Sequence record: PV357172.2
Source of the DNA: a phage
Reading direction: 5' to 3' (one strand)
Length of the DNA stretch: 64,000 nucleotides
This document shows, in pieces, positions 33,253 to 54,203 of this stretch. The translations under genes and the position numbers were made by a program. Within the stretch, counting starts at the first letter, position 1, and every line of letters begins with the position of its first letter. The notes under the pieces are model-generated. The model was not told the origin of the DNA. It did no database searches and saw only the letters and a list, made by a program, of their open reading frames with translations.

Positions 33253-34074
33253 ATGGGTAAATTACAAAAACAAATACTACCACATATAGATTATATTCGA
33301 GAAATTATAGAGTATAATCCTTATACTGGTAAATTATTTTATAAGCCTAATAAATACAAGAATAAAACTTGGCACACCCTATATGCTGGGAGAGAAATAT
33401 GTAGTAAGAACTCTGATGGGTATATCAGAGTTAGTTTGCTCTTAGATAATAAACCCACAATTATTTATGGACACCGAATAGCGTGGTTGCTCCATTATGG
33501 TGAAGAGCCTCCTTATATGATCGACCATATAAATACCATACCGTGGGATAACAGAATTGTTAATCTAAGAGAGACAAATTTTAAGTTAAATAGGATTAAT
33601 ACTAATAAAACCGTAGGTGTAGAACTCCTCCCCGAGGGTTTTGTGTATAGCATTACATTAGGTGGAAAGTTTTTCGTATCTCCTGGCTTCACCACTTTCG
33701 AACAAGCTAAAGGGGAAAGAGAAAAACTAGTAAATGGTTTATGTAATGCAGAAATTGGGAAGCAGACCAATATTCTAATAGACGATGTTAGAGATCTACC
33801 TGAAATGTCCATTATTTGTCGTACAGTTATAGGTGCGCTGGAACTATCAGATATGTTTAGTTTTACTGGTTCCTACCTATTTATGGACTCAGATCTAGGA
33901 GACCCAGAAGTACAAGGAAAAGACTTATTAGATTATATACTCTTTTTAGGTCAAAGACCTTTGAAAGTAGTTCTAGTAACATCCAACCCTGTTGACGCAG
34001 AGTACATGAGAGGTACTCTTACGTCTTATGGTTATCGAGAAAATCCCAATAGGTTAGAATATGACCTATTTTAA
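33253..34074 (+). CDS. HNH endonuclease with C-terminal extension
   Basis: HNH motif YGHRIAWLLHYGEEPPYMIDHINTIPWDNRIVNL in N-terminal half. Confidence 0.65.
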   Translation: MGKLQKQILPHIDYIREIIEYNPYTGKLFYKPNKYKNKTWHTLYAGREICSKNSDGYIRVSLLLDNKPTIIYGHRIAWLLHYGEEPPYMIDHINTIPWDNRIVNLRETNFKLNRINTNKTVGVELLPEGFVYSITLGGKFFVSPGFTTFEQAKGEREKLVNGLCNAEIGKQTNILIDDVRDLPEMSIICRTVIGALELSDMFSFTGSYLFMDSDLGDPEVQGKDLLDYILFLGQRPLKVVLVTSNPVDAEYMRGTLTSYGYRENPNRLEYDLF

Positions 34075-34086
34075 GGAGTAAAAAGA

Positions 34087-34536
34087 ATGAAGGCAGCTTT
34101 GCTTTTAGTAGCTGCCCTTACCTTCAGCTTTAGTAGTCAGGCATCGCACGATGCAAAAGAAATAGATTGCATTGCTAAAAATATCTATTTTGAAAGTCGT
34201 GGTGAGGGCATAAATGGAATGATGGCGATTGCACATGTTACTAAAAACCGTGTAAACTCCGGTAAATTCCCAGATTCCTACTGTAAAGTAGTATATCAGT
34301 CTACCCAGTTCTCTTGGGTATCTAAGAGACCAAAAGTTGATAAAACGGATGAGGCTTGGCAAACCGCTAAGAATTTAGCTAGAGTGATATACTACGTTGA
34401 TTTACCACAAGATCCAACACATGGAGCACTATACTTCCATAGTGGTAAAGATAAACCTTACTGGACAAAGAAGTTTAAGAAAACAACGAAGATTCAAGGC
34501 CATACGTTCTACAAGCCTGCGGTCACTAAAACTTAA
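34087..34536 (+). CDS. secreted SleB-like cell wall hydrolase
   Basis: Signal peptide MKAALLLVAALTFSFSSQA; motif NIYFESRGEG...AIAHVTKNR typical of the SleB/Hydrolase_2 family. Confidence 0.55.
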   Translation: MKAALLLVAALTFSFSSQASHDAKEIDCIAKNIYFESRGEGINGMMAIAHVTKNRVNSGKFPDSYCKVVYQSTQFSWVSKRPKVDKTDEAWQTAKNLARVIYYVDLPQDPTHGALYFHSGKDKPYWTKKFKKTTKIQGHTFYKPAVTKT

Positions 34537-35218: not shown

Positions 35219-35478
35219 AAATTTACTTGCTAAATGCTTATAAATTCTGTATAATATATTCATAAATTAGGGAACAGCGAGCCGATTACGCTGAGTGCAG
35301 AATCCCAACCGGAGCGCATTGAATAGAGTCGGTGGGTTAGTTGTAAAACTAGTACACAGGGGGCGGCAATCCCGGTTAGTGGCTAGAACGTGTAAAATGA
35401 GGCGTCTGAAACCTCTCCCCTAAACTCTTCTCTAATTTATAAATAGTGGGGTGTGGAAATCACTTATGTAGTAACACT

Positions 35479-35550
35479 GCCGTCCTAGTATAATTGGTAT
35501 TATCAAGCCGTAACTGGTGGAAGATGTAGGTTCGAATCCTACGGTCGGTA
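35479..35550 (+). tRNA. tRNA-like element (possibly degenerate; anticodon not resolved)
   Basis: T-arm GTAGG-TTCGAAT-CCTAC and a 7-bp acceptor with one mismatch; anticodon stem does not fold cleanly. Confidence 0.3.
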
Positions 35551-36052
35551 AGAACTGGATAACTGATGCTTTTAACGTAAAAGCTTCCGAGGTTAGTTGC
35601 GCACTGCCTAAACCACGCGGTAGTTGGTTCCAGACTAACCAACCAGTCTGCTGAATAGTTTTATTACGATTTAACTATGCCCAGGCTAAAGAAGAACTTT
35701 AGAAGGTATTCTAGGATAGTGAAGTTCTTTCTCCATATCGGAGTAGTTTTTCAAGCTATCCACAAAGTGGGAAATGCTGACATGAGAGATGTCACTAATG
35801 GTGCACAATAGCACAGGTAATTCGCGATAACCCCTGTTGAGTAGCAGCAAAAGGCGGGAAGTCATGACCCCAAGCCTAACCGAGTCCTCAATATACCGCA
35901 GGACATAACCACTAAGTCCCCCTGACTTAAACTGGAAAATAATAGACGTTACTGTATTTTGTCTTGAAATACTTAATGAGTGAGACTTATGACTCTCCCG
36001 GTATCGTCTGTATTTTTAAGAGTTTTTACGAGAGTTCTTAAAAATACTTAAA

Positions 36053-36127
36053 CGGGGTGTAGTCTAAGGGAGAGGCAGGAGTCTTCTAAATTCCTTTATG
36101 CAGGTTCGAATCCTGTCACCTCGGCCA
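36053..36127 (+). tRNA. tRNA-Arg (anticodon TCT)
   Basis: Hand-folded cloverleaf: acceptor CGGGGTG/CACCTCG, anticodon loop CTTCTAA, T-arm GCAGG-TTCGAAT-CCTGT, encoded CCA. Confidence 0.65.
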
Positions 36128-36161: not shown

Positions 36162-37109
36162 ATGTTTAATACTAAAAATATGAAAGAACTGACTTCTGAG
36201 CAGAAAGTAATTCGTACTATTAAACGTTGGGGTATTGGTGCTGTAGTTGGTTTAGCAGGTTTAATCCTAGCTTTTAATTCATATACTGTTGTTCAAGACG
36301 GTACTGTTAAAACCCAGACTTTCCTGGGTAAAGTTGACCCTAGCCCAGTATTACCCGGCTTTCATATTGTAAATCCTTTTGCTTCTTTCGATACTTTTAG
36401 TACTAAAGATATTGCCCTAAAATTAGATAAACTTCAGGTTCCTAGCCAGGATAAGTTTAAATCCACTGTTGACCTGACTGTTATGTTGCAGTTTGATGGT
36501 TCTAAGGCACCAATTAACCGTATTAACGCAGGTACTCAGGATCAGGCGTTAGACAAGTATGTAACTGAAAAATTACTGTCTACTATTCGTGAGTTTGGTA
36601 AGTCTGTACCTAAAGCACAAGATTTGTTTGATGCTAAAATTCAGGCTCAATTGCAAACTGCAATTCAACAGGAAGTTGAAGAGTATGCACGCCCATATGG
36701 TTACACAGTTAAGCAGGTATTCCTTCAGGATATTACTTTGCCACCGGTAATCATGGAACAGGTACAGAATACCAAAGTTCGTGAAGAGCAAGTTAATGCT
36801 GCGAAAGCTGAACTGGCCCGCGTTGAACAAGAAGCGCAGCAAAAGGTTAAACAAGCAGAAGCAGACCGTGAAGCTCGCAACAACCAAGCTATTGCTAATG
36901 AACGTGACGCAGATGCTAAACTGTACGCAGCTAAGAAAGAAGCTGAAGCTAACGCCGCATTGCAACGTACCATTACTCCTGAGATGATTCGCTGGAAGCA
37001 ACTGGAAGTTGAAATGCTTCGTGCTGAAAAATACCAAGGTGGTGTACCGCAAACAGTAGTGGGAACTGGTTACGATGGCCAGATGATCATGGATATGCGT
37101 AATAAGTAA
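36162..37109 (+). CDS. SPFH/band-7 (prohibitin/HflK-like) membrane protein
   Basis: N-terminal TM segment, SPFH-like core, Ala/Glu/Gln-rich coiled-coil tail. Confidence 0.55.
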   Translation: MFNTKNMKELTSEQKVIRTIKRWGIGAVVGLAGLILAFNSYTVVQDGTVKTQTFLGKVDPSPVLPGFHIVNPFASFDTFSTKDIALKLDKLQVPSQDKFKSTVDLTVMLQFDGSKAPINRINAGTQDQALDKYVTEKLLSTIREFGKSVPKAQDLFDAKIQAQLQTAIQQEVEEYARPYGYTVKQVFLQDITLPPVIMEQVQNTKVREEQVNAAKAELARVEQEAQQKVKQAEADREARNNQAIANERDADAKLYAAKKEAEANAALQRTITPEMIRWKQLEVEMLRAEKYQGGVPQTVVGTGYDGQMIMDMRNK

Positions 37110-37145
37110 TATCCGCATGTAATCTCTGAAGTAAGCCCTGTGTTC

Positions 37146-37175
37146 CCTGGAGAGCGCAGGGCTTTTCTGTATTTA
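37146..37175 (+). terminator. rho-independent terminator
   Basis: Hairpin CCCTG-GAGAGCG-CAGGG followed by CTTTTCTGTATTT. Confidence 0.55.
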
Positions 37176-37299: not shown

Positions 37300-37350
37300 A
37301 GTTAAAAAATTCGATTGCTTGAATGCTAAATTCTCTGTATAATATATTTA
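37300..37350 (+). promoter_or_regulatory. sigma70-like strong early promoter
   Basis: TTGCTT at 37315-37320, 17-nt spacer, TGTATAAT ending at 37343. Confidence 0.6.
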
Positions 37351-37373
37351 TAAATTTGAGAGAGGAATCAAAT

Positions 37374-38429
37374 ATGATTAAGACTGGTCTAGTAATTGGT
37401 AAGTTCGCACCATTAACGCGTGGTCATATTAACCTAATAAACACAGCAGCAACTATGTGTGAACGAGTTATTGTTGTAGTTAGTCATGATAATCGTTGGC
37501 TGGATAAGCAGAACACACGTGATCAGGAAGTATTACAGTTAAAGAATCGACTTCGTTGGTTAGAACAAACTTACGCGGATATTGAGCACATTTCGGTAGA
37601 GTACATTATTGAAGATGATATTCCTGAATATCCGAATGGTTGGCCGGAATATGCTAGAATCCTTAATGAAAATTACGGACATTTGCCTGAGATCACCGTT
37701 TTCTCTAGCGAACTAGACTATGATGCAGAATATAAGAAATATCTGCCGAAGTTTGGTCATTATATTGTAGATTCTGATCGGACTCGTGTTCCAATCTCAG
37801 CTACAATGATTCGTAATGATCTTATGAAGTATTGGGAGTTTCTTCCTAGCTTAGTTCGTAAAGATTACGTGCGTAAGGTTGTAATCATTGGGACTGAAAG
37901 CTCGGGAAAGACTACTTTAACAAAATACCTTGCGAAGCTATACAACACTTCGTGGGTAGAAGAATATGGCCGAACGTATTGTGAAGTTGATCTAGTTGGT
38001 AACGAAAATCTACTTACCAGTGAAGATTACAGTAAAATTGCGTTCAGACACAAAGAGCTAGAGTTTGAAGCAGAACGTACTGCAAATAAGATCATGTTTG
38101 TGGATACAAATGCTTTTATTACTGAGTTCTACCACAGACTTTATGAACATAGTAAGAACCCTGTGGTTACAGCAATTGCAAAAGTAGAACATTACGATTT
38201 AGTAATTGTTCTAGCGCCTACTGTCAAGTGGGTAGATGATGATTTACGTATTAACTCCGATCGTTCAATTACTTCTGAACTGTTCGAGCAGATGAAGAAA
38301 GAATTTCCAAATCAGTTCCCTGAAGGGCGTACTGTTTACATCGACTCTCCGGACTACAAAGTTCGTATGGACGAAGCAGTAAACGCAGTAGACTGGCTGA
38401 TTCATCACTTTAACGTTGGAGAGTTTTAA
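37374..38429 (+). CDS. NadR-like bifunctional NMN adenylyltransferase / ribosylnicotinamide kinase
   Basis: N-terminal nucleotidyltransferase motif GKFAPLTRGHINLI; C-terminal P-loop IIGTESSGKTTL. Confidence 0.65.
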   Translation: MIKTGLVIGKFAPLTRGHINLINTAATMCERVIVVVSHDNRWLDKQNTRDQEVLQLKNRLRWLEQTYADIEHISVEYIIEDDIPEYPNGWPEYARILNENYGHLPEITVFSSELDYDAEYKKYLPKFGHYIVDSDRTRVPISATMIRNDLMKYWEFLPSLVRKDYVRKVVIIGTESSGKTTLTKYLAKLYNTSWVEEYGRTYCEVDLVGNENLLTSEDYSKIAFRHKELEFEAERTANKIMFVDTNAFITEFYHRLYEHSKNPVVTAIAKVEHYDLVIVLAPTVKWVDDDLRINSDRSITSELFEQMKKEFPNQFPEGRTVYIDSPDYKVRMDEAVNAVDWLIHHFNVGEF

Positions 38430-38430
38430 T

Positions 38431-39108
38431 ATGACTAACTATCTCGTAAATGACTTTAAAAACTGGAAACCTCTGGAATATCTGTGGCTGCTCATAGCGG
38501 TTGTCTTCATTAGTTTAGCAAACTATAATGGTACAGCTCTAGATTGGGCTACTGCAATAACCAATGTGGTTTGTGTTATTCTGGTTGCAAAAGGACGTGT
38601 TTCCAACTATATTTGGGGCTTAGTGGGTGTTCTTACATATGGTATTACAGCTTTAAACGCAGATCTTTATGGTAACGCTGCACTAAACCTGCTATACTAC
38701 GTTCCTATGCAGTTTTATGGAATGTACTTATGGCATAAAAATAAACCAAGTAATCTGCCAGACGTTCCAACTAAGGTTCTGACTAAAGCTCAGGCTTTAT
38801 TAACTCTTGGGATTCTAGCAGTAGCTACTCTAGGCTATGGCAGCTTCCTCGCTACCACAGCAGATCCGTTCCCAATGCTCGATGCATTTACTGCGGTTGG
38901 TAGTGTAATTGCTATGTGGCTTATGGTCAAGCAGTATGCTGAACAATGGCTAATCTGGATTGCCATTAATATTGGTACTGTATACATTTGGTTTGTAACT
39001 GCTCAGTCTACAGGTGCTTCTTATGCAATCCTAGCAATGTGGCTGGTATTCTTTGGTAACTCTGTACTTGGAGCCTATAAAGGGTACTTTGTACGCGTTA
39101 ACAAATAA
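38431..39108 (+). CDS. PnuC-like nicotinamide riboside transporter
   Basis: Multi-TM protein immediately downstream of NadR-like gene; ATG at 38431 after GGAGAG. Confidence 0.55.
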   Translation: MTNYLVNDFKNWKPLEYLWLLIAVVFISLANYNGTALDWATAITNVVCVILVAKGRVSNYIWGLVGVLTYGITALNADLYGNAALNLLYYVPMQFYGMYLWHKNKPSNLPDVPTKVLTKAQALLTLGILAVATLGYGSFLATTADPFPMLDAFTAVGSVIAMWLMVKQYAEQWLIWIAINIGTVYIWFVTAQSTGASYAILAMWLVFFGNSVLGAYKGYFVRVNK

Positions 39109-39588: not shown

Positions 39589-39936
39589 TTGAAGATGATG
39601 AAAAAAGAAGCGTTCTACACTGTCCCAGCAATTAATCTGCTCGGTACTGTACTATTTCAGATTAAGTTCTACCTGCGAGACGACTACACTGAAGTGGTAA
39701 ACGCTATTGTACCTGAGTTCTTCGTAAATAATTTCCAAAAGGACTTTAAGTTCTTTATTGATGATGTTTACGATGGTGTGGTTGATCCGGCAGTAGCTCC
39801 AGCTATATACAATGTATTTAATTCTCTGCCAGATCTAGATTTTGATCTAGGACTTATTGAGTCTGGTGAGATTATCTGGGCACTTAATGTTCCAGTGACT
39901 GGATTCCCTGGTTGGCTGCAAGGTTACGAACTCTAA
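39589..39936 (+). CDS. hypothetical protein (115 aa)
   Basis: ORF track. Confidence 0.45.
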   Translation: MKMMKKEAFYTVPAINLLGTVLFQIKFYLRDDYTEVVNAIVPEFFVNNFQKDFKFFIDDVYDGVVDPAVAPAIYNVFNSLPDLDFDLGLIESGEIIWALNVPVTGFPGWLQGYEL

Positions 39937-39944
39937 CAAAATTT

Positions 39945-40027
39945 GGATCTGTGGTGGAATTGGCAATACACACCATGCTTAAAACGTGGCGCTTAAATGA
40001 TTGAGGGTTCGAGCCCCTCCAGATCCA
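39945..40027 (+). tRNA. tRNA-Leu (anticodon TAA), long variable arm
   Basis: Perfect acceptor GGATCTG/CAGATCC, anticodon arm CCATG-CTTAAAA-CGTGG, T-arm GAGGG-TTCGAGC-CCCTC, encoded CCA. Confidence 0.7.
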
Positions 40028-40182
40028 CCAAATTAAGGAAGTAAAAATGAAATCTATTAAGAAAGCACTGCGTAAATTTATGTATTGTCGTTTTCATAGC
40101 ATCAAGGCTTCAACTAATGGTACTACTTACGATCGCTATGATCCTAAGTTTGGCTTACATTCTAAATAACTGGAGAAAACAA

Positions 40183-40389
40183 ATGGCTAATCCTGAAATT
40201 ACGGCACAACGCTTTATGCTGAAAGGAATTATTGCTGAAGCAGGCATGACAGAAGAAGTTGCAGATTTTCAAAAGCAATTCCTCAATATTCTCACTCAAG
40301 CCAAAGAGCTAGGAGAGAAAGAACATGGCGCGGCTATTATGGCAATCACATTGGTTGGGCTTGATCTGGCTGAAGAATCAGGAGTTTAA
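40183..40389 (+). CDS. hypothetical protein (about 68 aa)
   Basis: ATG at 40183 after GGAGAAAACAA; track ORF starts upstream. Confidence 0.45.
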   Translation: MANPEITAQRFMLKGIIAEAGMTEEVADFQKQFLNILTQAKELGEKEHGAAIMAITLVGLDLAEESGV

Positions 40390-40478
40390 CTCCTCCAAGC
40401 AGAAATTTTAAAAATGTACTTGCTTTTTACTTAAGATTTCTGCTATAATAGTTATATAAGTTGATGAGAGGAATCAGA

Positions 40479-40754
40479 ATGTTAAAACGTTTTGCAGCAA
40501 CTGGTATTGAAAGCTCAGTATGTAAATCCTGGGGTGGTTGGGAAGGTGAGATCGAGTGGCTTTATTTCTACAATGTAGAACTTCTTCCAGAGATCAAAGC
40601 TCAATGTATTGAGGCTGGTATGGCTCCTGATGCTACGGCTGATGTTGAAATCAGCATGAATAAGCTAGAGGGTCGAGTAGTCACTGTTACTGATGAAGGT
40701 GAAGAGGTATTCGAACTTCCATTCACTTTGAAAGTCACTCCTTCATTTGATTAA
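40479..40754 (+). CDS. hypothetical protein (about 91 aa)
   Basis: ATG at 40479 after promoter module and GAGAGG. Confidence 0.5.
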   Translation: MLKRFAATGIESSVCKSWGGWEGEIEWLYFYNVELLPEIKAQCIEAGMAPDATADVEISMNKLEGRVVTVTDEGEEVFELPFTLKVTPSFD

Positions 40755-40882
40755 CTGATACAGCACTGAGCAAGTTCTTTAAAATTTGACTTGCTCAGTA
40801 CCTTAAAACTTGGTATAATAGTTATCTAATTTGGAAACATATTTAAAAGTATTCAAATACTAGTTTAAACACTTTTAAATGT

Positions 40883-40966
40883 ACATCGTTGGCAGAATGG
40901 CTATTGTAGCGGTCTGTAAATCCGTGCCCTTCGGGATTGGTGGTTCGAATCTTACACGGCCCGCCA
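40883..40966 (+). tRNA. tRNA-Tyr-like element (GTA anticodon loop), possibly degenerate
   Basis: D-arm and anticodon arm (loop CTGTAAA) fold, variable-arm hairpin GCCC-TTC-GGG, TTCGAAT T-loop, CCA present; T-stem and acceptor pair poorly in my reading. Confidence 0.3.
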
Positions 40967-41068
40967 AATTCTGTGTAGAGTTAAGTAAACCGGTAGCCAA
41001 CCAGCTATCATTGCTGACATCGAATTCAGCCACAGATACCATTTTCATTAATAACTGAGGAAATAGAT

Positions 41069-41254
41069 ATGACAACTCGTGCAATTGCTCGACTAGAAGC
41101 TGATCGTGATAATCTGATTAATAATATTAAGGTTCGTGGTAATATTATTAAGGCTCTGAAAGCTGAACTTCTTGAAGAACTTCAAGGTCAAGTAGAGCGT
41201 CGTGAAGCTCTAAAAGAGGTTGAGGAAGCTATCGAAAAACTCAAAGCTGAGTAA
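41069..41254 (+). CDS. small coiled-coil protein (61 aa)
   Basis: ORF track; GAGGAAATAGAT RBS. Confidence 0.45.
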   Translation: MTTRAIARLEADRDNLINNIKVRGNIIKALKAELLEELQGQVERREALKEVEEAIEKLKAE

Positions 41255-41257
41255 ATT

Positions 41258-41839
41258 ATGCACGGAATATCCTTACCAATTCCAGGGTTTGAGGAGTACT
41301 TAGTAAGTTTGGATGGGTTAGTATTTAGTATCAAATCAAACAAAATACTAACCCCAATAACCAGTAATTACGGATACTTATCTATACGTCTCCATAAAAA
41401 TGGTCAACAGAGAAATACCGGTGTACATAGGATTTTAGCATGTGCATTTAAGAAATTACCAAGTCTAGACTCTGAACTAGAAGTTGACCATATTAACACA
41501 GACATTACTTATTGGGGTCTTAATAACTTACAAGTGCTCACAAAAGAGCAGCATCTAGAAAAGACTTTAAAAGATAAAGGATTTAGTAAACTAAACCATG
41601 ATAATTGTTGTAAGGATTGTGGTAAAGCTATTTCTTTAAAAGCTGAAAAATGTCAGGAGTGCTCTTCACATAAACCAAAAGATATCTCTATAACTAAAGA
41701 AATAATCGAGGTTACAGTAAGAGAGCTAGGCTGGTCAGGTGCAGGGAGAAAGTTAAGTTATTCAGATAATGGGTTGCGTAAAAGATACACTTCTTTAGGA
41801 GGCAATCCTAAAGAACTTAAAAAGTTAAAGGTACTATAG
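41258..41839 (+). CDS. HNH endonuclease with zinc finger and C-terminal HTH
   Basis: HNH region ELEVDHINTDITYWGLNNLQVLTKEQH; CKDCG...CQEC zinc finger; paralog of 43929-44513. Confidence 0.65.
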   Translation: MHGISLPIPGFEEYLVSLDGLVFSIKSNKILTPITSNYGYLSIRLHKNGQQRNTGVHRILACAFKKLPSLDSELEVDHINTDITYWGLNNLQVLTKEQHLEKTLKDKGFSKLNHDNCCKDCGKAISLKAEKCQECSSHKPKDISITKEIIEVTVRELGWSGAGRKLSYSDNGLRKRYTSLGGNPKELKKLKVL

Positions 41840-52790: not shown

Positions 52791-53390
52791 ATGACTAATA
52801 AAAAAGAAGAAAAGACTAACCTGTTTCACTCCATTCGCCAATCTAACGAGTATACCTTTTTCTTTGATGAAGAGTTAGGCCCGCCGGATGAATACCGTGA
52901 TTTATCAATGGTACTTATGCAGGCACATGAGGACGACGAAATTAATCTGATGATTAATGGCCCGGGTGGTTATGTTGATACTGCTGCACAGTTATCTAAC
53001 TTAATTGCTAATTGCCGTGGAACAGTTATAGGACACCTGATTGGTCCTAGTGCTTCTGCTTACTGCACAATTTTCCTATCCTGTCATGGATGGGTAGTAC
53101 ATCCACATGCTACGCTAATGGGACACACGTTCTCTGGCGGATTCTGTGAGAAGGGTCAAGAAATCAAGAAAGCCTATGAATCTTACAACAAGTTCGTAGA
53201 AGATATGATGCTAGATGTCTACTATCCGTTCTTCTCAATAGACGAAATCGACGAGATGGTAAAAGACAACAAAAATATCTATCTAGATAGCAAAGAAATC
53301 CATAAGCGTATTGAAATCTTGGCAAAATATCGATCTGAGCAATATAATAAAGCCCAGTTACCTCAATCAGAGGAGCATAACGAAGAGTAA
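52791..53390 (+). CDS. ClpP-like (S14 family) serine peptidase
   Basis: ClpP-like core INGPGGYVDTA...IGPSASAYCTIF...HPHATLMGH. Confidence 0.45.
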   Translation: MTNKKEEKTNLFHSIRQSNEYTFFFDEELGPPDEYRDLSMVLMQAHEDDEINLMINGPGGYVDTAAQLSNLIANCRGTVIGHLIGPSASAYCTIFLSCHGWVVHPHATLMGHTFSGGFCEKGQEIKKAYESYNKFVEDMMLDVYYPFFSIDEIDEMVKDNKNIYLDSKEIHKRIEILAKYRSEQYNKAQLPQSEEHNEE

Positions 53391-53546: not shown

Positions 53547-54203
53547 TTGGAAAAGTTCTTACAATTATTAACGGTACTGCTCCAAGAAGCGAAAGATCCA
53601 GCATCGCTTCTTAAACGTCTGCTAACTATCTTAGTTGCTGTCATTATTTTCTTATTTGTTAGTAATACTAGCGAGGTGATGTCATTCTTAAAGACTTTCT
53701 CCACGTCTGCGGTTCTACAGGATGTTCAAACTCAAAGGATAGATAACTTTCCTAATGTAGCTAGAGAAAAGAGCATGGTACTTTTTTCTCAAACGGGTGC
53801 GGATGCTGTTTTTGTCGTCAAGTATAAACCAGATGCTATTAATGATTATTCTAACATTATTGCATGGGAAAGCAATGCGCAATTAGATAGGGCTGACTTG
53901 GCCGATAAAGCGGTAAATAAAACGTCTGAGCTATATAGACGTCACTTGGAGGGCTTTAACTACGCATCGGATTTAAGTGTAAAAGTAAATAAATACATGG
54001 GGTTAAATATACCTGCGTTTAAGAACGTTACTTTTAATTACATATACACTTGTCCGTATTTCAATCTAAACAATATCTATGCTGGATATATTGGTATTGC
54101 TTGGAAAGATAACCCTGTAGATGCAGCCGATTCTGAGAAATTTAAGGAATATTTAACAAAGCTCTGTTCACCACAACAGAGATCTTTAGGTAGATCAATA
54201 TGA
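53547..54203 (+). CDS. putative T-type holin (single N-terminal TM, large periplasmic domain)
   Basis: 218 aa, one TM (LLTILVAVIIFLFV); TTG start after GAGGAGGT; immediately precedes endolysin with ATGA overlap. Confidence 0.5.
   Translation: MEKFLQLLTVLLQEAKDPASLLKRLLTILVAVIIFLFVSNTSEVMSFLKTFSTSAVLQDVQTQRIDNFPNVAREKSMVLFSQTGADAVFVVKYKPDAINDYSNIIAWESNAQLDRADLADKAVNKTSELYRRHLEGFNYASDLSVKVNKYMGLNIPAFKNVTFNYIYTCPYFNLNNIYAGYIGIAWKDNPVDAADSEKFKEYLTKLCSPQQRSLGRSI

What the first reader, a model, noticed from the sequence alone, without database searches (positions are those of the whole stretch)
36162..37109. SPFH/band-7 (prohibitin-like) membrane protein encoded beside the NAD salvage operon
The protein has an N-terminal transmembrane anchor, an SPFH-like core and a long Ala/Glu/Gln coiled-coil tail, with strong codon bias suggesting high expression. 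SPFH proteins organise membrane microdomains and regulate membrane proteases; in a phage it could modulate host membrane proteases or cooperate with the adjacent PnuC-like transporter.
Basis: partly seen in the sequence, partly recalled or inferred. Interest (0 to 1): 0.5.

Follow-up and report, generated by a model that had tools for sequence, protein, structure and literature searches.

The report
Known T5-family SPFH membrane scaffold gene
This gene of a T5-like phage does encode a membrane-anchored SPFH (prohibitin/HflK-like) protein, but it matches phage T5 gene T5.080, is already annotated this way in many phages, is transcribed separately from the neighbouring NAD-salvage genes, and still has no tested function.

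Summary

The gene is the orthologue (97% aa identity) of T5.080. It occurs in about 439 of 441 E. coli/Salmonella T5-like genomes. Copies 60-80% identical occur in unrelated T4-like, roughly 90-kb and roughly 153-kb phages. The SPFH domain was reported in the T4-like homologues in 2006.

It is not part of the NAD operon. It sits in its own unit (promoter, RNAX, tRNA-Arg, gene, strong terminator), and nadR-pnuC has its own promoter. That cassette is absent from T5 and most relatives and is published as a self-sufficient two-gene module, NARP3.

Charge distribution and lipoprotein-signal variants in relatives place the SPFH domain in the periplasm, like HflK/C. The viable T5 st0 deletion mutant lacks the gene, so it is dispensable in the laboratory. 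The most likely role is an accessory, cage-forming membrane scaffold with an unknown client. Already known; low to moderate interest.

The parts
35227..35255 (+). Sigma-70-type early promoter (TTGCTA-17-TATAAT) that heads the transcription unit containing the SPFH gene. It corresponds to T5 promoter 'P 16-17'.
   Evidence: Promoter scan scores 10 of 12. The region aligns to T5 41562-41772, which holds the annotated promoter P16-17.
35260..36052 (+). About 0.8 kb without a long ORF, homologous to T5 'RNAX' (stable RNA of unknown function). It contains a tRNA-like element at 35479-35550.
   Evidence: 91-93% DNA identity to T5 40848-41566, annotated as misc_RNA RNAX. Rfam tRNA model scores 35.5 bits at 35479-35550. 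ARAGORN does not call it.
36053..36127 (+). tRNA-Arg (anticodon TCT), 34 nt upstream of the SPFH start codon and in the same unit.
   Evidence: ARAGORN. Rfam tRNA 49.3 bits. T5 has the same order, tRNA-Arg then T5.080.
36162..37109 (+). SPFH/Band-7 protein gene, 315 aa, orthologue of T5.080.
   Evidence: ORF. Pfam Band_7 E=2e-17. PHROG 200 E=2e-85. 97% aa identity to the T5 locus. dN/dS 0.034.
36162..36227 (+). Residues 1-22: basic N-terminal tail (6 K/R, 2 D/E), predicted to be cytoplasmic.
   Evidence: Charge count. In 197 of 243 family members the N-terminal flank is more positive than the C-terminal flank. The location follows from the positive-inside rule and is an inference.
36228..36284 (+). 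Residues about 23-41: the single transmembrane anchor. There is no cysteine, so no lipobox.
   Evidence: Hydropathy, and a cysteine count of 0. AlphaFold helix 12-39.
36285..36737 (+). Residues 42-192: SPFH alpha/beta core, predicted to be periplasmic.
36744..37031 (+). Residues 195-270 and 273-290: a long Ala/Glu/Gln-rich helix and a second helix. These are the counterparts of the wall and roof helices of SPFH cages.
   Evidence: Secondary structure in the model. Alignments of 270-320 columns to subunits of prohibitin, erlin, HflK/C and QmcA assemblies. Homologues carry indels of 11 and 22 residues inside this helix.
37032..37106 (+). Residues 291-315: conserved C-terminal tail (Y..GGVP.TVVG..Y.G). 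It is not modelled in the monomer and probably folds only in the oligomer.
   Evidence: Invariant columns Y291, G293, V295, P296, T298, G301, Y304, G306. pLDDT below 50 for residues 298-315. The oligomer interpretation is an inference.
37133..37173 (+). Intrinsic terminator that closes the SPFH unit: a 13-bp stem followed by a T-run.
   Evidence: Terminator scan. RNA fold gives -22.9 kcal/mol, z = -2.7. It lies within the block aligned to T5 39640-40985, which includes T5's 'efficient bidirectional rho-independent terminator'.
37316..39108 (+). Neighbouring unit, not part of the SPFH unit. Promoter TTGCTT-17-TATAAT at 37316-37344; nadR-like gene with probable true start at ATG 37374, ending at 38429; pnuC from 38416 or 38431 to 39108. 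Together these form the NARP3 NAD+ reconstitution module.
   Evidence: Sequence. The promoter stretch aligns to the T5 P15a region. Family hits for NadR and PnuC. The PHROG match for NadR starts at residue 18 of the ORF. NARP3 paper PMC13464706.

Best explanation
The gene is the T5.080-family SPFH protein of a T5-like (Markadamsvirinae) phage.

Shown:
- It is a single-pass membrane protein with an SPFH core, two long C-terminal helices and a conserved tail.
- This is the same overall architecture as the subunits of prohibitin, erlin, HflK/C, stomatin and QmcA assemblies.
- It lies in its own early transcription unit (sigma-70-type promoter, RNAX, tRNA-Arg, gene, terminator), separate from nadR-pnuC.
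- It is under strong purifying selection and is near-universal in E. coli/Salmonella T5-likes.
- It has been exchanged among unrelated virulent phages, has chromosomal relatives in some Gammaproteobacteria, and is dispensable for T5 growth in the laboratory.

Inferred:
- The basic N-terminus stays in the cytoplasm and the SPFH domain faces the periplasm. This is the HflK/C and prohibitin orientation, and the opposite of QmcA.
- Copies of the single gene product assemble into a ring or cage on the outer face of the inner membrane and fence off a membrane patch or a client protein during infection.

The client is unknown. By analogy with HflK/C, host FtsH or its membrane substrates are the leading candidate (my estimate about 0.2). 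General stabilisation of the infected cell's inner membrane is the next candidate.

The position next to the NAD-salvage cassette reflects a variable insertion spot, not a shared function.
For: Identity and fold:
- Pfam Band_7 E=2e-17.
- Family profile against PDB sequences: QmcA 1e-15, prohibitin-2 2e-15, prohibitin-1 3e-14, HflC 1e-11.
- AlphaFold model with pLDDT 90 and pTM 0.67.
- Foldseek full-length matches to cage subunits, including HflK/C in complex with FtsH.

Topology:
- N-terminal flank net +4, C-terminal flank net 0.
- 197 of 243 relatives show the same bias.
- 15 relatives replace the anchor with a lipoprotein signal peptide ending in a lipobox cysteine. That is only compatible with an exported domain.

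Transcription unit:
- Promoter, terminator and the separate nadR promoter.
- The same layout is annotated in T5.

Conservation and spread:
- SPFH at 80% identity or more in 439 phage records, against 441 records with the T5-type origin-binding protein at 80% or more.
- dN/dS 0.034.
- 73-81% identity in RB43-like T4-likes and in roughly 90-kb and 153-kb phages.
- Chromosomal relatives in Morganella/Providencia (57-59% identity) and in Methylophagaceae, where the order trpA-accD-folC-SPFH is conserved.

Other points:
- Dispensability: the T5 st0 deletion covers NC_005859 33681-41878 and removes T5.080; tblastn finds no SPFH match in the 20-kb st0 stretch spanning the deletion junction.
- Only one SPFH gene was found in the window.
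- Independence from the NAD genes.
Against: - No oligomer was modelled or measured.
- The last 18-25 residues, which would close a cage, are unmodelled.
- Topology rests on charge bias and on relatives, not on an experiment.
- Nothing links the protein to FtsH. NCBIfam HflK/HflC models do not match this protein and match only 16 and 6 of 50 relatives at E up to 0.001.
- No defence or counter-defence model matches it (PADLOC).
- In RB43-like phages the gene is always directly upstream of an NMN adenylyltransferase-Nudix gene (10 of 10 loci). A link to NAD metabolism is therefore not fully excluded.
- Viability of T5 st0 shows that whatever it does is conditional.
Confidence: 0.7

Rival explanations
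1. The SPFH protein is a working partner of the adjacent NAD-salvage genes, for example by scaffolding or stabilising the PnuC transporter in the membrane.
For: It is immediately upstream of nadR-pnuC in this window. In RB43-like T4-likes the SPFH gene is always directly upstream of a different, NadM-type NMN adenylyltransferase-Nudix gene. In Aeromonas T4-likes that gene lies about 6 kb downstream.
Against: - A terminator and a separate promoter lie between the units.
- T5 has the SPFH gene but no nadR-pnuC.
- Only 2 of roughly 30 T5-like IMG/VR loci carry the cassette within 8 kb.
- The roughly 90-kb and 153-kb phages have no NAD gene nearby.
- RB43-like loci show no PnuC match within 8 kb of the SPFH gene.
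- NARP3 is sufficient as two genes in E. coli (PMC13464706).
- The periplasmic SPFH domain would sit on the opposite side of the membrane from NadR.
Confidence: 0.06
2. It is a counter-defence or superinfection-exclusion factor. A periplasm-facing cage would shield the inner membrane from membrane-acting immune effectors or sensors, or from DNA entry by a second phage.
For: - In two lineages it lies beside NAD+ reconstitution counter-defence genes: NARP3 here, and an NMNAT-Nudix gene (the enzyme type of NARP2's second step) in RB43-likes.
- It is dispensable on a laboratory host yet strongly conserved and horizontally spread among virulent phages. That is the usual signature of host-interaction genes.
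- In the Vi01-like phage PhiSH19, a 263-aa SPFH-domain protein (not shown here to belong to this subfamily) is listed next to a 'superinfection exclusion protein' (PMC3220722).
Against: The evidence is association only. There was no PADLOC hit. No paper in the library links SPFH with anti-defence. Cellular homologues sit in housekeeping contexts rather than defence islands.
Confidence: 0.12
3. It tunes envelope events linked to lysis, for example by holding back a holin or a secreted cell-wall hydrolase until the right time.
For: - In RB43-like phages it lies two genes downstream of the rI antiholin.
- In T5-likes a signal-peptide-bearing SleB-type cell-wall hydrolase lies 1.6 kb upstream.
- Hydrolase_2 genes also lie 0.4-1 kb downstream of the SPFH gene in the roughly 153-kb and 90-kb phages.
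Against: The hydrolases are only 30-35% identical across these lineages while the SPFH proteins are 75-78% identical, so they did not move together. The tk-rI region of T4-likes is known to me as a variable gene region, which is recollection and was not tested. T4-like loci have no such hydrolase within 8 kb. T5 st0 lacks the gene and is a standard viable strain.
Confidence: 0.08
4. It is a lipoprotein, as the PHROG 200 label and many RefSeq records state.
For: PHROG 200 'lipoprotein' matches at E=2e-85. T5.080 is labelled 'lipoprotein' in RefSeq. 15 of 243 relatives do have lipobox signal peptides.
Against: This protein and its close T5-like orthologues contain no cysteine, so they cannot be lipid-modified at a lipobox. 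The label is carried over from other members of the family.
Confidence: 0.01

Closest known systems
Phage T5 gene T5.080 and its orthologues in Markadamsvirinae. GenBank annotations vary: 'SPFH domain protein', 'modulator of FtsH protease', 'lipoprotein', 'hypothetical protein'.
   Same: 97% amino-acid identity and the same length. The same unit order: promoter, RNAX, tRNA-Arg, gene, terminator.
   Different: In this window the slot downstream of the terminator holds nadR-pnuC. In T5 it holds T5.077-079 on the opposite strand.
RB43ORF139c, 44RRORF098c and Aeh1ORF064c of T4-like phages. The SPFH/Band 7 Pfam hit for these was reported in 2006 (PMC1524935).
   Same: Same family at 60-81% identity, with the same architecture.
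   Different: Different phage family and different neighbours: rI antiholin, DUF5856 and NMNAT-Nudix.
E. coli HflK/HflC (FtsH-enclosing SPFH cage; PDB 7vhp, 7wi3, 9cz2).
   Different: About 13-14% identity. NCBIfam HflK/HflC models do not match. There is one gene rather than a K/C pair. No evidence of FtsH binding.
Prohibitin-1/2 and erlin-1/2 (PDB 9o9z, 8rrh, 9o9u, 9vvj).
   Different: These are eukaryotic heteromers at 12-20% identity. They are no closer in sequence than bacterial QmcA.
E. coli QmcA with its NfeD partner YbbJ (PDB 8z5g).
   Same: Best sequence match among solved structures: 2e-6 for the single sequence and 1e-15 for the profile.
   Different: QmcA has no basic residues before its anchor and, from my own knowledge, faces the cytoplasm. 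The phage protein has the opposite charge bias. No NfeD-type partner gene lies next to the phage gene or its homologues.

Membership tests
SPFH / Band-7 superfamily | Match to the Band_7 (PF01145) profile above the curated threshold | tested here: met
   64.3 bits against a cut-off of 23.6, E=2e-17, residues 52-225.
SPFH / Band-7 superfamily | SPFH alpha/beta fold | tested here: met
SPFH / Band-7 superfamily | Membrane anchor at the N-terminus followed by long C-terminal helices | tested here: met
   One hydrophobic segment at about residues 23-41. Helices at 195-270 and 273-290.
SPFH / Band-7 superfamily | Assembly into a high-order ring or cage on a membrane | not testable with these tools
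   Only single-chain prediction was available. The conserved but unmodelled C-terminal tail is consistent with a fold that depends on the oligomer.
   A family HMM finds only one SPFH ORF in the 64-kb window. The rest of the genome was not seen.
HflK/HflC | Match to the HflK or HflC equivalog models | tested here: not met
   No NCBIfam hit for this protein. Hits at E up to 0.001 in 16 (HflC) and 6 (HflK) of 50 relatives.
HflK/HflC | N-in/C-out topology with a periplasmic SPFH domain | tested here: met
   This is met by inference only. N-flank net +4 against C-flank 0. 197 of 243 relatives show the same bias, and 15 have lipoprotein signal peptides instead of an anchor.
HflK/HflC | Binds and encloses FtsH | not testable with these tools
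   No interaction prediction or experiment was possible.
Stomatin/QmcA-NfeD pairs | Adjacent NfeD-family partner gene | tested here: not met
   Flanking ORFs in T5-like, RB43-like, Aeromonas, roughly 90-kb and 153-kb phages and in Morganella show no NfeD domain. Apart from one pilin-like ORF in Aeromonas phage, they have no membrane segment. The ClpP-like protease at 52791-53390 is 16 kb away and is not distributed together with the SPFH gene.
Bacterial lipoproteins (PHROG 200 label) | Signal peptide ending in a lipobox cysteine | tested here: not met
   The protein has no cysteine.
NARP3 NAD+ reconstitution module | Co-transcribed and co-inherited with nadR-pnuC | tested here: not met
   Terminator and separate promoter. 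The cassette is absent from T5 and from most T5-like loci that carry the SPFH gene. The module is defined as two genes (PMC13464706).

The most novel reading that the evidence does not exclude
The phage makes its own HflK/C-like cage on the periplasmic face of the host inner membrane. The cage either captures FtsH or shields the membrane from membrane-acting immune effectors or from superinfecting phages. This would make it a structural counter-defence or host-takeover factor that virulent phages of several families trade among themselves, and that tends to sit near NAD+ counter-defence genes.
Probability: 0.12. Interest if true: 0.65.

Novelty: already known. Interest (0 to 1): 0.28.

Why it matters
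No virus-encoded SPFH protein has a tested function in the literature I could search. Yet this one is kept in nearly every E. coli/Salmonella T5-like phage, evolves under tight constraint, and has moved between unrelated virulent phages. SPFH proteins also occur in giant viruses and many other phages. Finding its client would show what these phages need to change at the host inner membrane, and would give a simple one-gene model for SPFH cage assembly. As a scan finding it adds nothing new: the gene and its domain are already annotated, and the suggested tie to the NAD genes does not hold.

Tried and rejected
- PADLOC defence models gave no hit.
- NCBIfam gave no hit for this protein.
- Literature searches for 'T5.080', 'phage T5'+SPFH, SPFH+T5-like genus names and SPFH+anti-defense returned nothing relevant. 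A broader defence-term search returned only unrelated papers.
The close alignment A1 worked.
- I considered that the ClpP-like protease at 52791-53390 (weak NfeD1b_N similarity, E=0.002) is the stomatin-type protease partner. I rejected this. The protease is spread across all T5-family phages, including the many Vibrio ones where SPFH matches are far fewer (28 versus 384 Vibrio records). RB43-like organism names do not appear in its hit summary.
- I considered that a small neighbouring ORF is a conserved partner. I rejected this because the flanking small ORFs differ between lineages.
- I considered that the NAD genes are functionally coupled. I tested this by transcription signals, by co-occurrence and against the NARP3 paper, and rejected it as the main explanation.
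- The lipoprotein label is rejected because the protein has no cysteine.
- The listing of cluster members on ten distant representatives returned no names, only contig sizes. One contig is 6.5 Mb, so cellular relatives exist.

Full report
**What the window is.** The 4-kb stretch around the finding matches 458 phage records, nearly all Salmonella and Escherichia T5-like phages. The best match is Salmonella phage MET_P1_179_112 at 95.8%. The window carries 19 tRNA genes downstream of the finding, as T5-like genomes do.

**The observation.**
- ORF 36162-37109 (+) encodes 315 aa, with an AGGA ribosome-binding site 5 nt before the ATG.
- There is one hydrophobic segment, about residues 23-41. It is preceded by a tail with 6 K/R and 2 D/E and followed by a neutral stretch. 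The protein has no cysteine.
- Pfam Band_7 matches residues 52-225 at E=2e-17, well above the curated cut-off.
- Residues 206-270 are 54% Ala, Glu or Gln.
- A first AlphaFold model built from 11 sequences reached pLDDT 76. A second, built from 50 family members, reached pLDDT 90 and pTM 0.67. It shows a helix at 12-39, a beta/alpha core at 41-192, one unbroken helix at 195-270, a second helix at 273-290 and an unmodelled tail.
- Foldseek against the PDB aligns 270-320 columns to subunits of prohibitin, erlin, stomatin, HflK/C, QmcA and flotillin assemblies.
- The codon-bias remark is only partly right. The gene ranks 5th of 62 by fraction of E. coli optimal codons and 14th by effective number of codons.
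- The downstream genes are a NadR-type enzyme and PnuC.

**It is a known gene.**
- In the T5 reference genome the orthologue is T5.080, at 97% aa identity.
- Those T4-like homologues and RB43ORF139c were listed with an SPFH/Band 7 Pfam hit in 2006 (PMC1524935).
- GenBank records call the gene 'SPFH domain protein', 'putative SPFH domain-containing protein/band 7 family protein', 'modulator of FtsH protease', 'PHB domain-containing protein', 'lipoprotein' or 'hypothetical protein'.
- The 'lipoprotein' label comes from PHROG 200. It cannot apply here because there is no cysteine. However, 15 of 243 relatives do carry a lipoprotein signal peptide in place of the anchor.

**Transcription.**
- A TTGCTA-17-TATAAT promoter at 35227-35255 aligns with T5's annotated promoter P16-17.
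- The roughly 0.8 kb that follows aligns with T5 'RNAX', a stable RNA of unknown function. Then come tRNA-Arg and the SPFH gene.
- A 13-bp-stem hairpin with a T-run at 37133-37164 folds at -22.9 kcal/mol. It lies in the block homologous to the T5 region that contains the annotated 'efficient bidirectional' terminator.
- A second promoter, TTGCTT-17-TATAAT at 37316-37344, aligns with the T5 P15a region. It precedes a good ribosome-binding site and an ATG at 37374, which is where the PHROG match to NadR begins.
- The SPFH gene and nadR-pnuC are therefore neighbouring but separate units.

**Distribution.**
- tblastn finds the protein at 80% identity or more in 439 phage records. A T5-type origin-binding protein is found at 80% or more in 441 records. 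The gene is thus close to universal in E. coli/Salmonella T5-likes.
- By contrast, only 162 of 458 records cover at least 80% of the 4-kb query that includes nadR-pnuC. Only 2 of roughly 30 T5-like IMG/VR loci have NadR and PnuC within 8 kb. T5 itself has three unrelated genes on the other strand in that slot.
- The same protein family, at 73-81% identity, sits in RB43-like T4-likes and in phages of about 90 kb and 153 kb. In Aeromonas T4-likes it is about 60% identical.
- Median dN/dS among T5-like orthologues is 0.034.
- A search of 1.84 billion cluster representatives found 948 relatives at E up to 0.001 and 170 at E up to 1e-10, so this is a narrow subfamily.
- Chromosomal relatives exist. 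Morganella and Providencia carry copies at 57-59% identity in non-prophage contexts. Methylophagaceae carry copies at 35-41% identity in a conserved trpA-accD-folC-SPFH arrangement.
- SPFH proteins are also predicted in many other phages and in giant viruses.

**Relation to the NAD genes.**
- The NadR-PnuC pair is the published NARP3 module. It was exemplified by Bas30_86/87 of Escherichia phage TrudiRoth and shown to import nicotinamide riboside. It rebuilds NAD+ and overcomes Sir2-HerA when just those two genes are expressed in E. coli (PMC13464706).
- Together with the separate transcription signals and the lack of co-inheritance, this argues against the idea that the SPFH protein works with PnuC.
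- One observation keeps a small doubt alive. In all ten RB43-like loci the SPFH gene is directly upstream of a different NMN adenylyltransferase fused to a Nudix domain.
- Because the 90-kb and 153-kb phages and T5 itself lack any such neighbour, I read this as accessory genes clustering in variable regions.

**Topology and likely mechanism.**
- The positive-inside rule (my own knowledge) places the basic N-terminus in the cytoplasm. The same charge bias holds in 197 of 243 relatives.
- The lipoprotein-signal variants can only be exported.
- The SPFH domain is therefore most likely periplasmic, as in HflK/C and prohibitins, and unlike QmcA. The QmcA sequence in the alignment begins directly with the hydrophobic segment.
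- Only one SPFH gene is present in the window. No NfeD-type or other conserved partner flanks it in any lineage.
- The C-terminal tail is highly conserved but unmodelled in the monomer. I take this as a sign that it folds only in an oligomer.
- My best reading is a homo-oligomeric ring or cage on the outer face of the inner membrane, made early in infection. The client is unknown. FtsH is the obvious candidate by analogy, but nothing here tests it.

**Dispensability.** The T5 st0 deletion mutant record joins T5 coordinates 33681 and 41878, which removes T5.080 at 39791-40738. No SPFH match remains in that region, while the flanking hydrolase gene is intact. T5 st0 is a viable laboratory strain, so the gene is accessory under laboratory conditions.

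**Verdict.** The SPFH call is right. The protease idea is plausible but untested. The PnuC idea is not supported. The feature is already annotated and was reported at domain level years ago. Its function remains open, which gives it some residual interest.

Noticed in passing
window 35260-36052: About 0.8 kb with no long ORF between an early promoter and tRNA-Arg. It is homologous to T5 'RNAX', annotated as a stable RNA of unknown function. It contains a tRNA-like element at 35479-35550 that passes the Rfam tRNA threshold (35.5 bits) but is not called by ARAGORN.
   Followed up: partly
window 37316-39108: The nadR-pnuC pair is the recently published NARP3 NAD+ reconstitution counter-defence module. 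The listed nadR ORF start at 37323 lies inside the promoter, and the real start is probably ATG 37374.
   Followed up: partly
L001 4971-7120 (phage RB43) and L035-L044: In RB43-like T4-likes the SPFH gene is always immediately followed by an NMN adenylyltransferase-Nudix gene, a different enzyme family from NadR. The rI antiholin and a DUF5856 gene lie just upstream.
   Followed up: partly
window 33253-34536; L033 9194-10015: An ORF fusing an HNH endonuclease domain to a cREC_REC (cyclic-phosphate processing receiver) domain is followed by a signal-peptide-bearing SleB-type cell-wall hydrolase. The cREC_REC plus Hydrolase_2 pair also sits just downstream of the SPFH gene in roughly 90-kb phages, where RtcB and an AAA ATPase lie upstream.
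   Followed up: partly
window 52791-53390: A ClpP-family protease (T5.042 orthologue) with weak similarity to the protease domain of long NfeD proteins (E=0.002). It is found across all T5-family phages and many others, so it is not tied to the SPFH gene.
   Followed up: yes
window 53679-54203: The holin of this T5-like phage is a clear homologue of the T4 T holin (Phage_holin_T, E=1e-93).
   Followed up: no
alignment A1, columns 255-291 (within the long helix): Homologues carry insertions of 11 and 22 residues inside the long helix. These are whole multiples of an 11-residue repeat and would change the height of any cage without breaking the helix register.
   Followed up: no
L057 (Flagellimonas marina contig, 178,077 bp); proteins P0027 and P0059: Some 'bacterial' or 'plasmid' records that hold close homologues are contigs of 174-178 kb. 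Examples are labelled Flagellimonas marina, a Klebsiella pneumoniae 'plasmid' and Enterobacter asburiae. That is the size of the T4-like phages carrying this gene, so they are probably phage genomes filed under bacterial names.
   Followed up: no
L058-L070: The chromosomal homologues of Morganella and Providencia are 90-99% identical to each other across the two genera. Flanking genes are shared only within Morganella, which hints at recent horizontal spread.
   Followed up: partly
L002 6026-6253 (Aeromonas phage 60AhydR15PP): The ORF just downstream of the SPFH gene begins with a type IV pilin-like N-terminal methylation motif (GFTLIELM). The 2006 paper lists the same kind of ORF next to the SPFH gene in phage 44RR.
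   Followed up: no
L030 5341-7961: In a roughly 153-kb phage the genes upstream of the SPFH gene encode TelA (toxic anion resistance family) and a ComF-like phosphoribosyltransferase.
   Followed up: no
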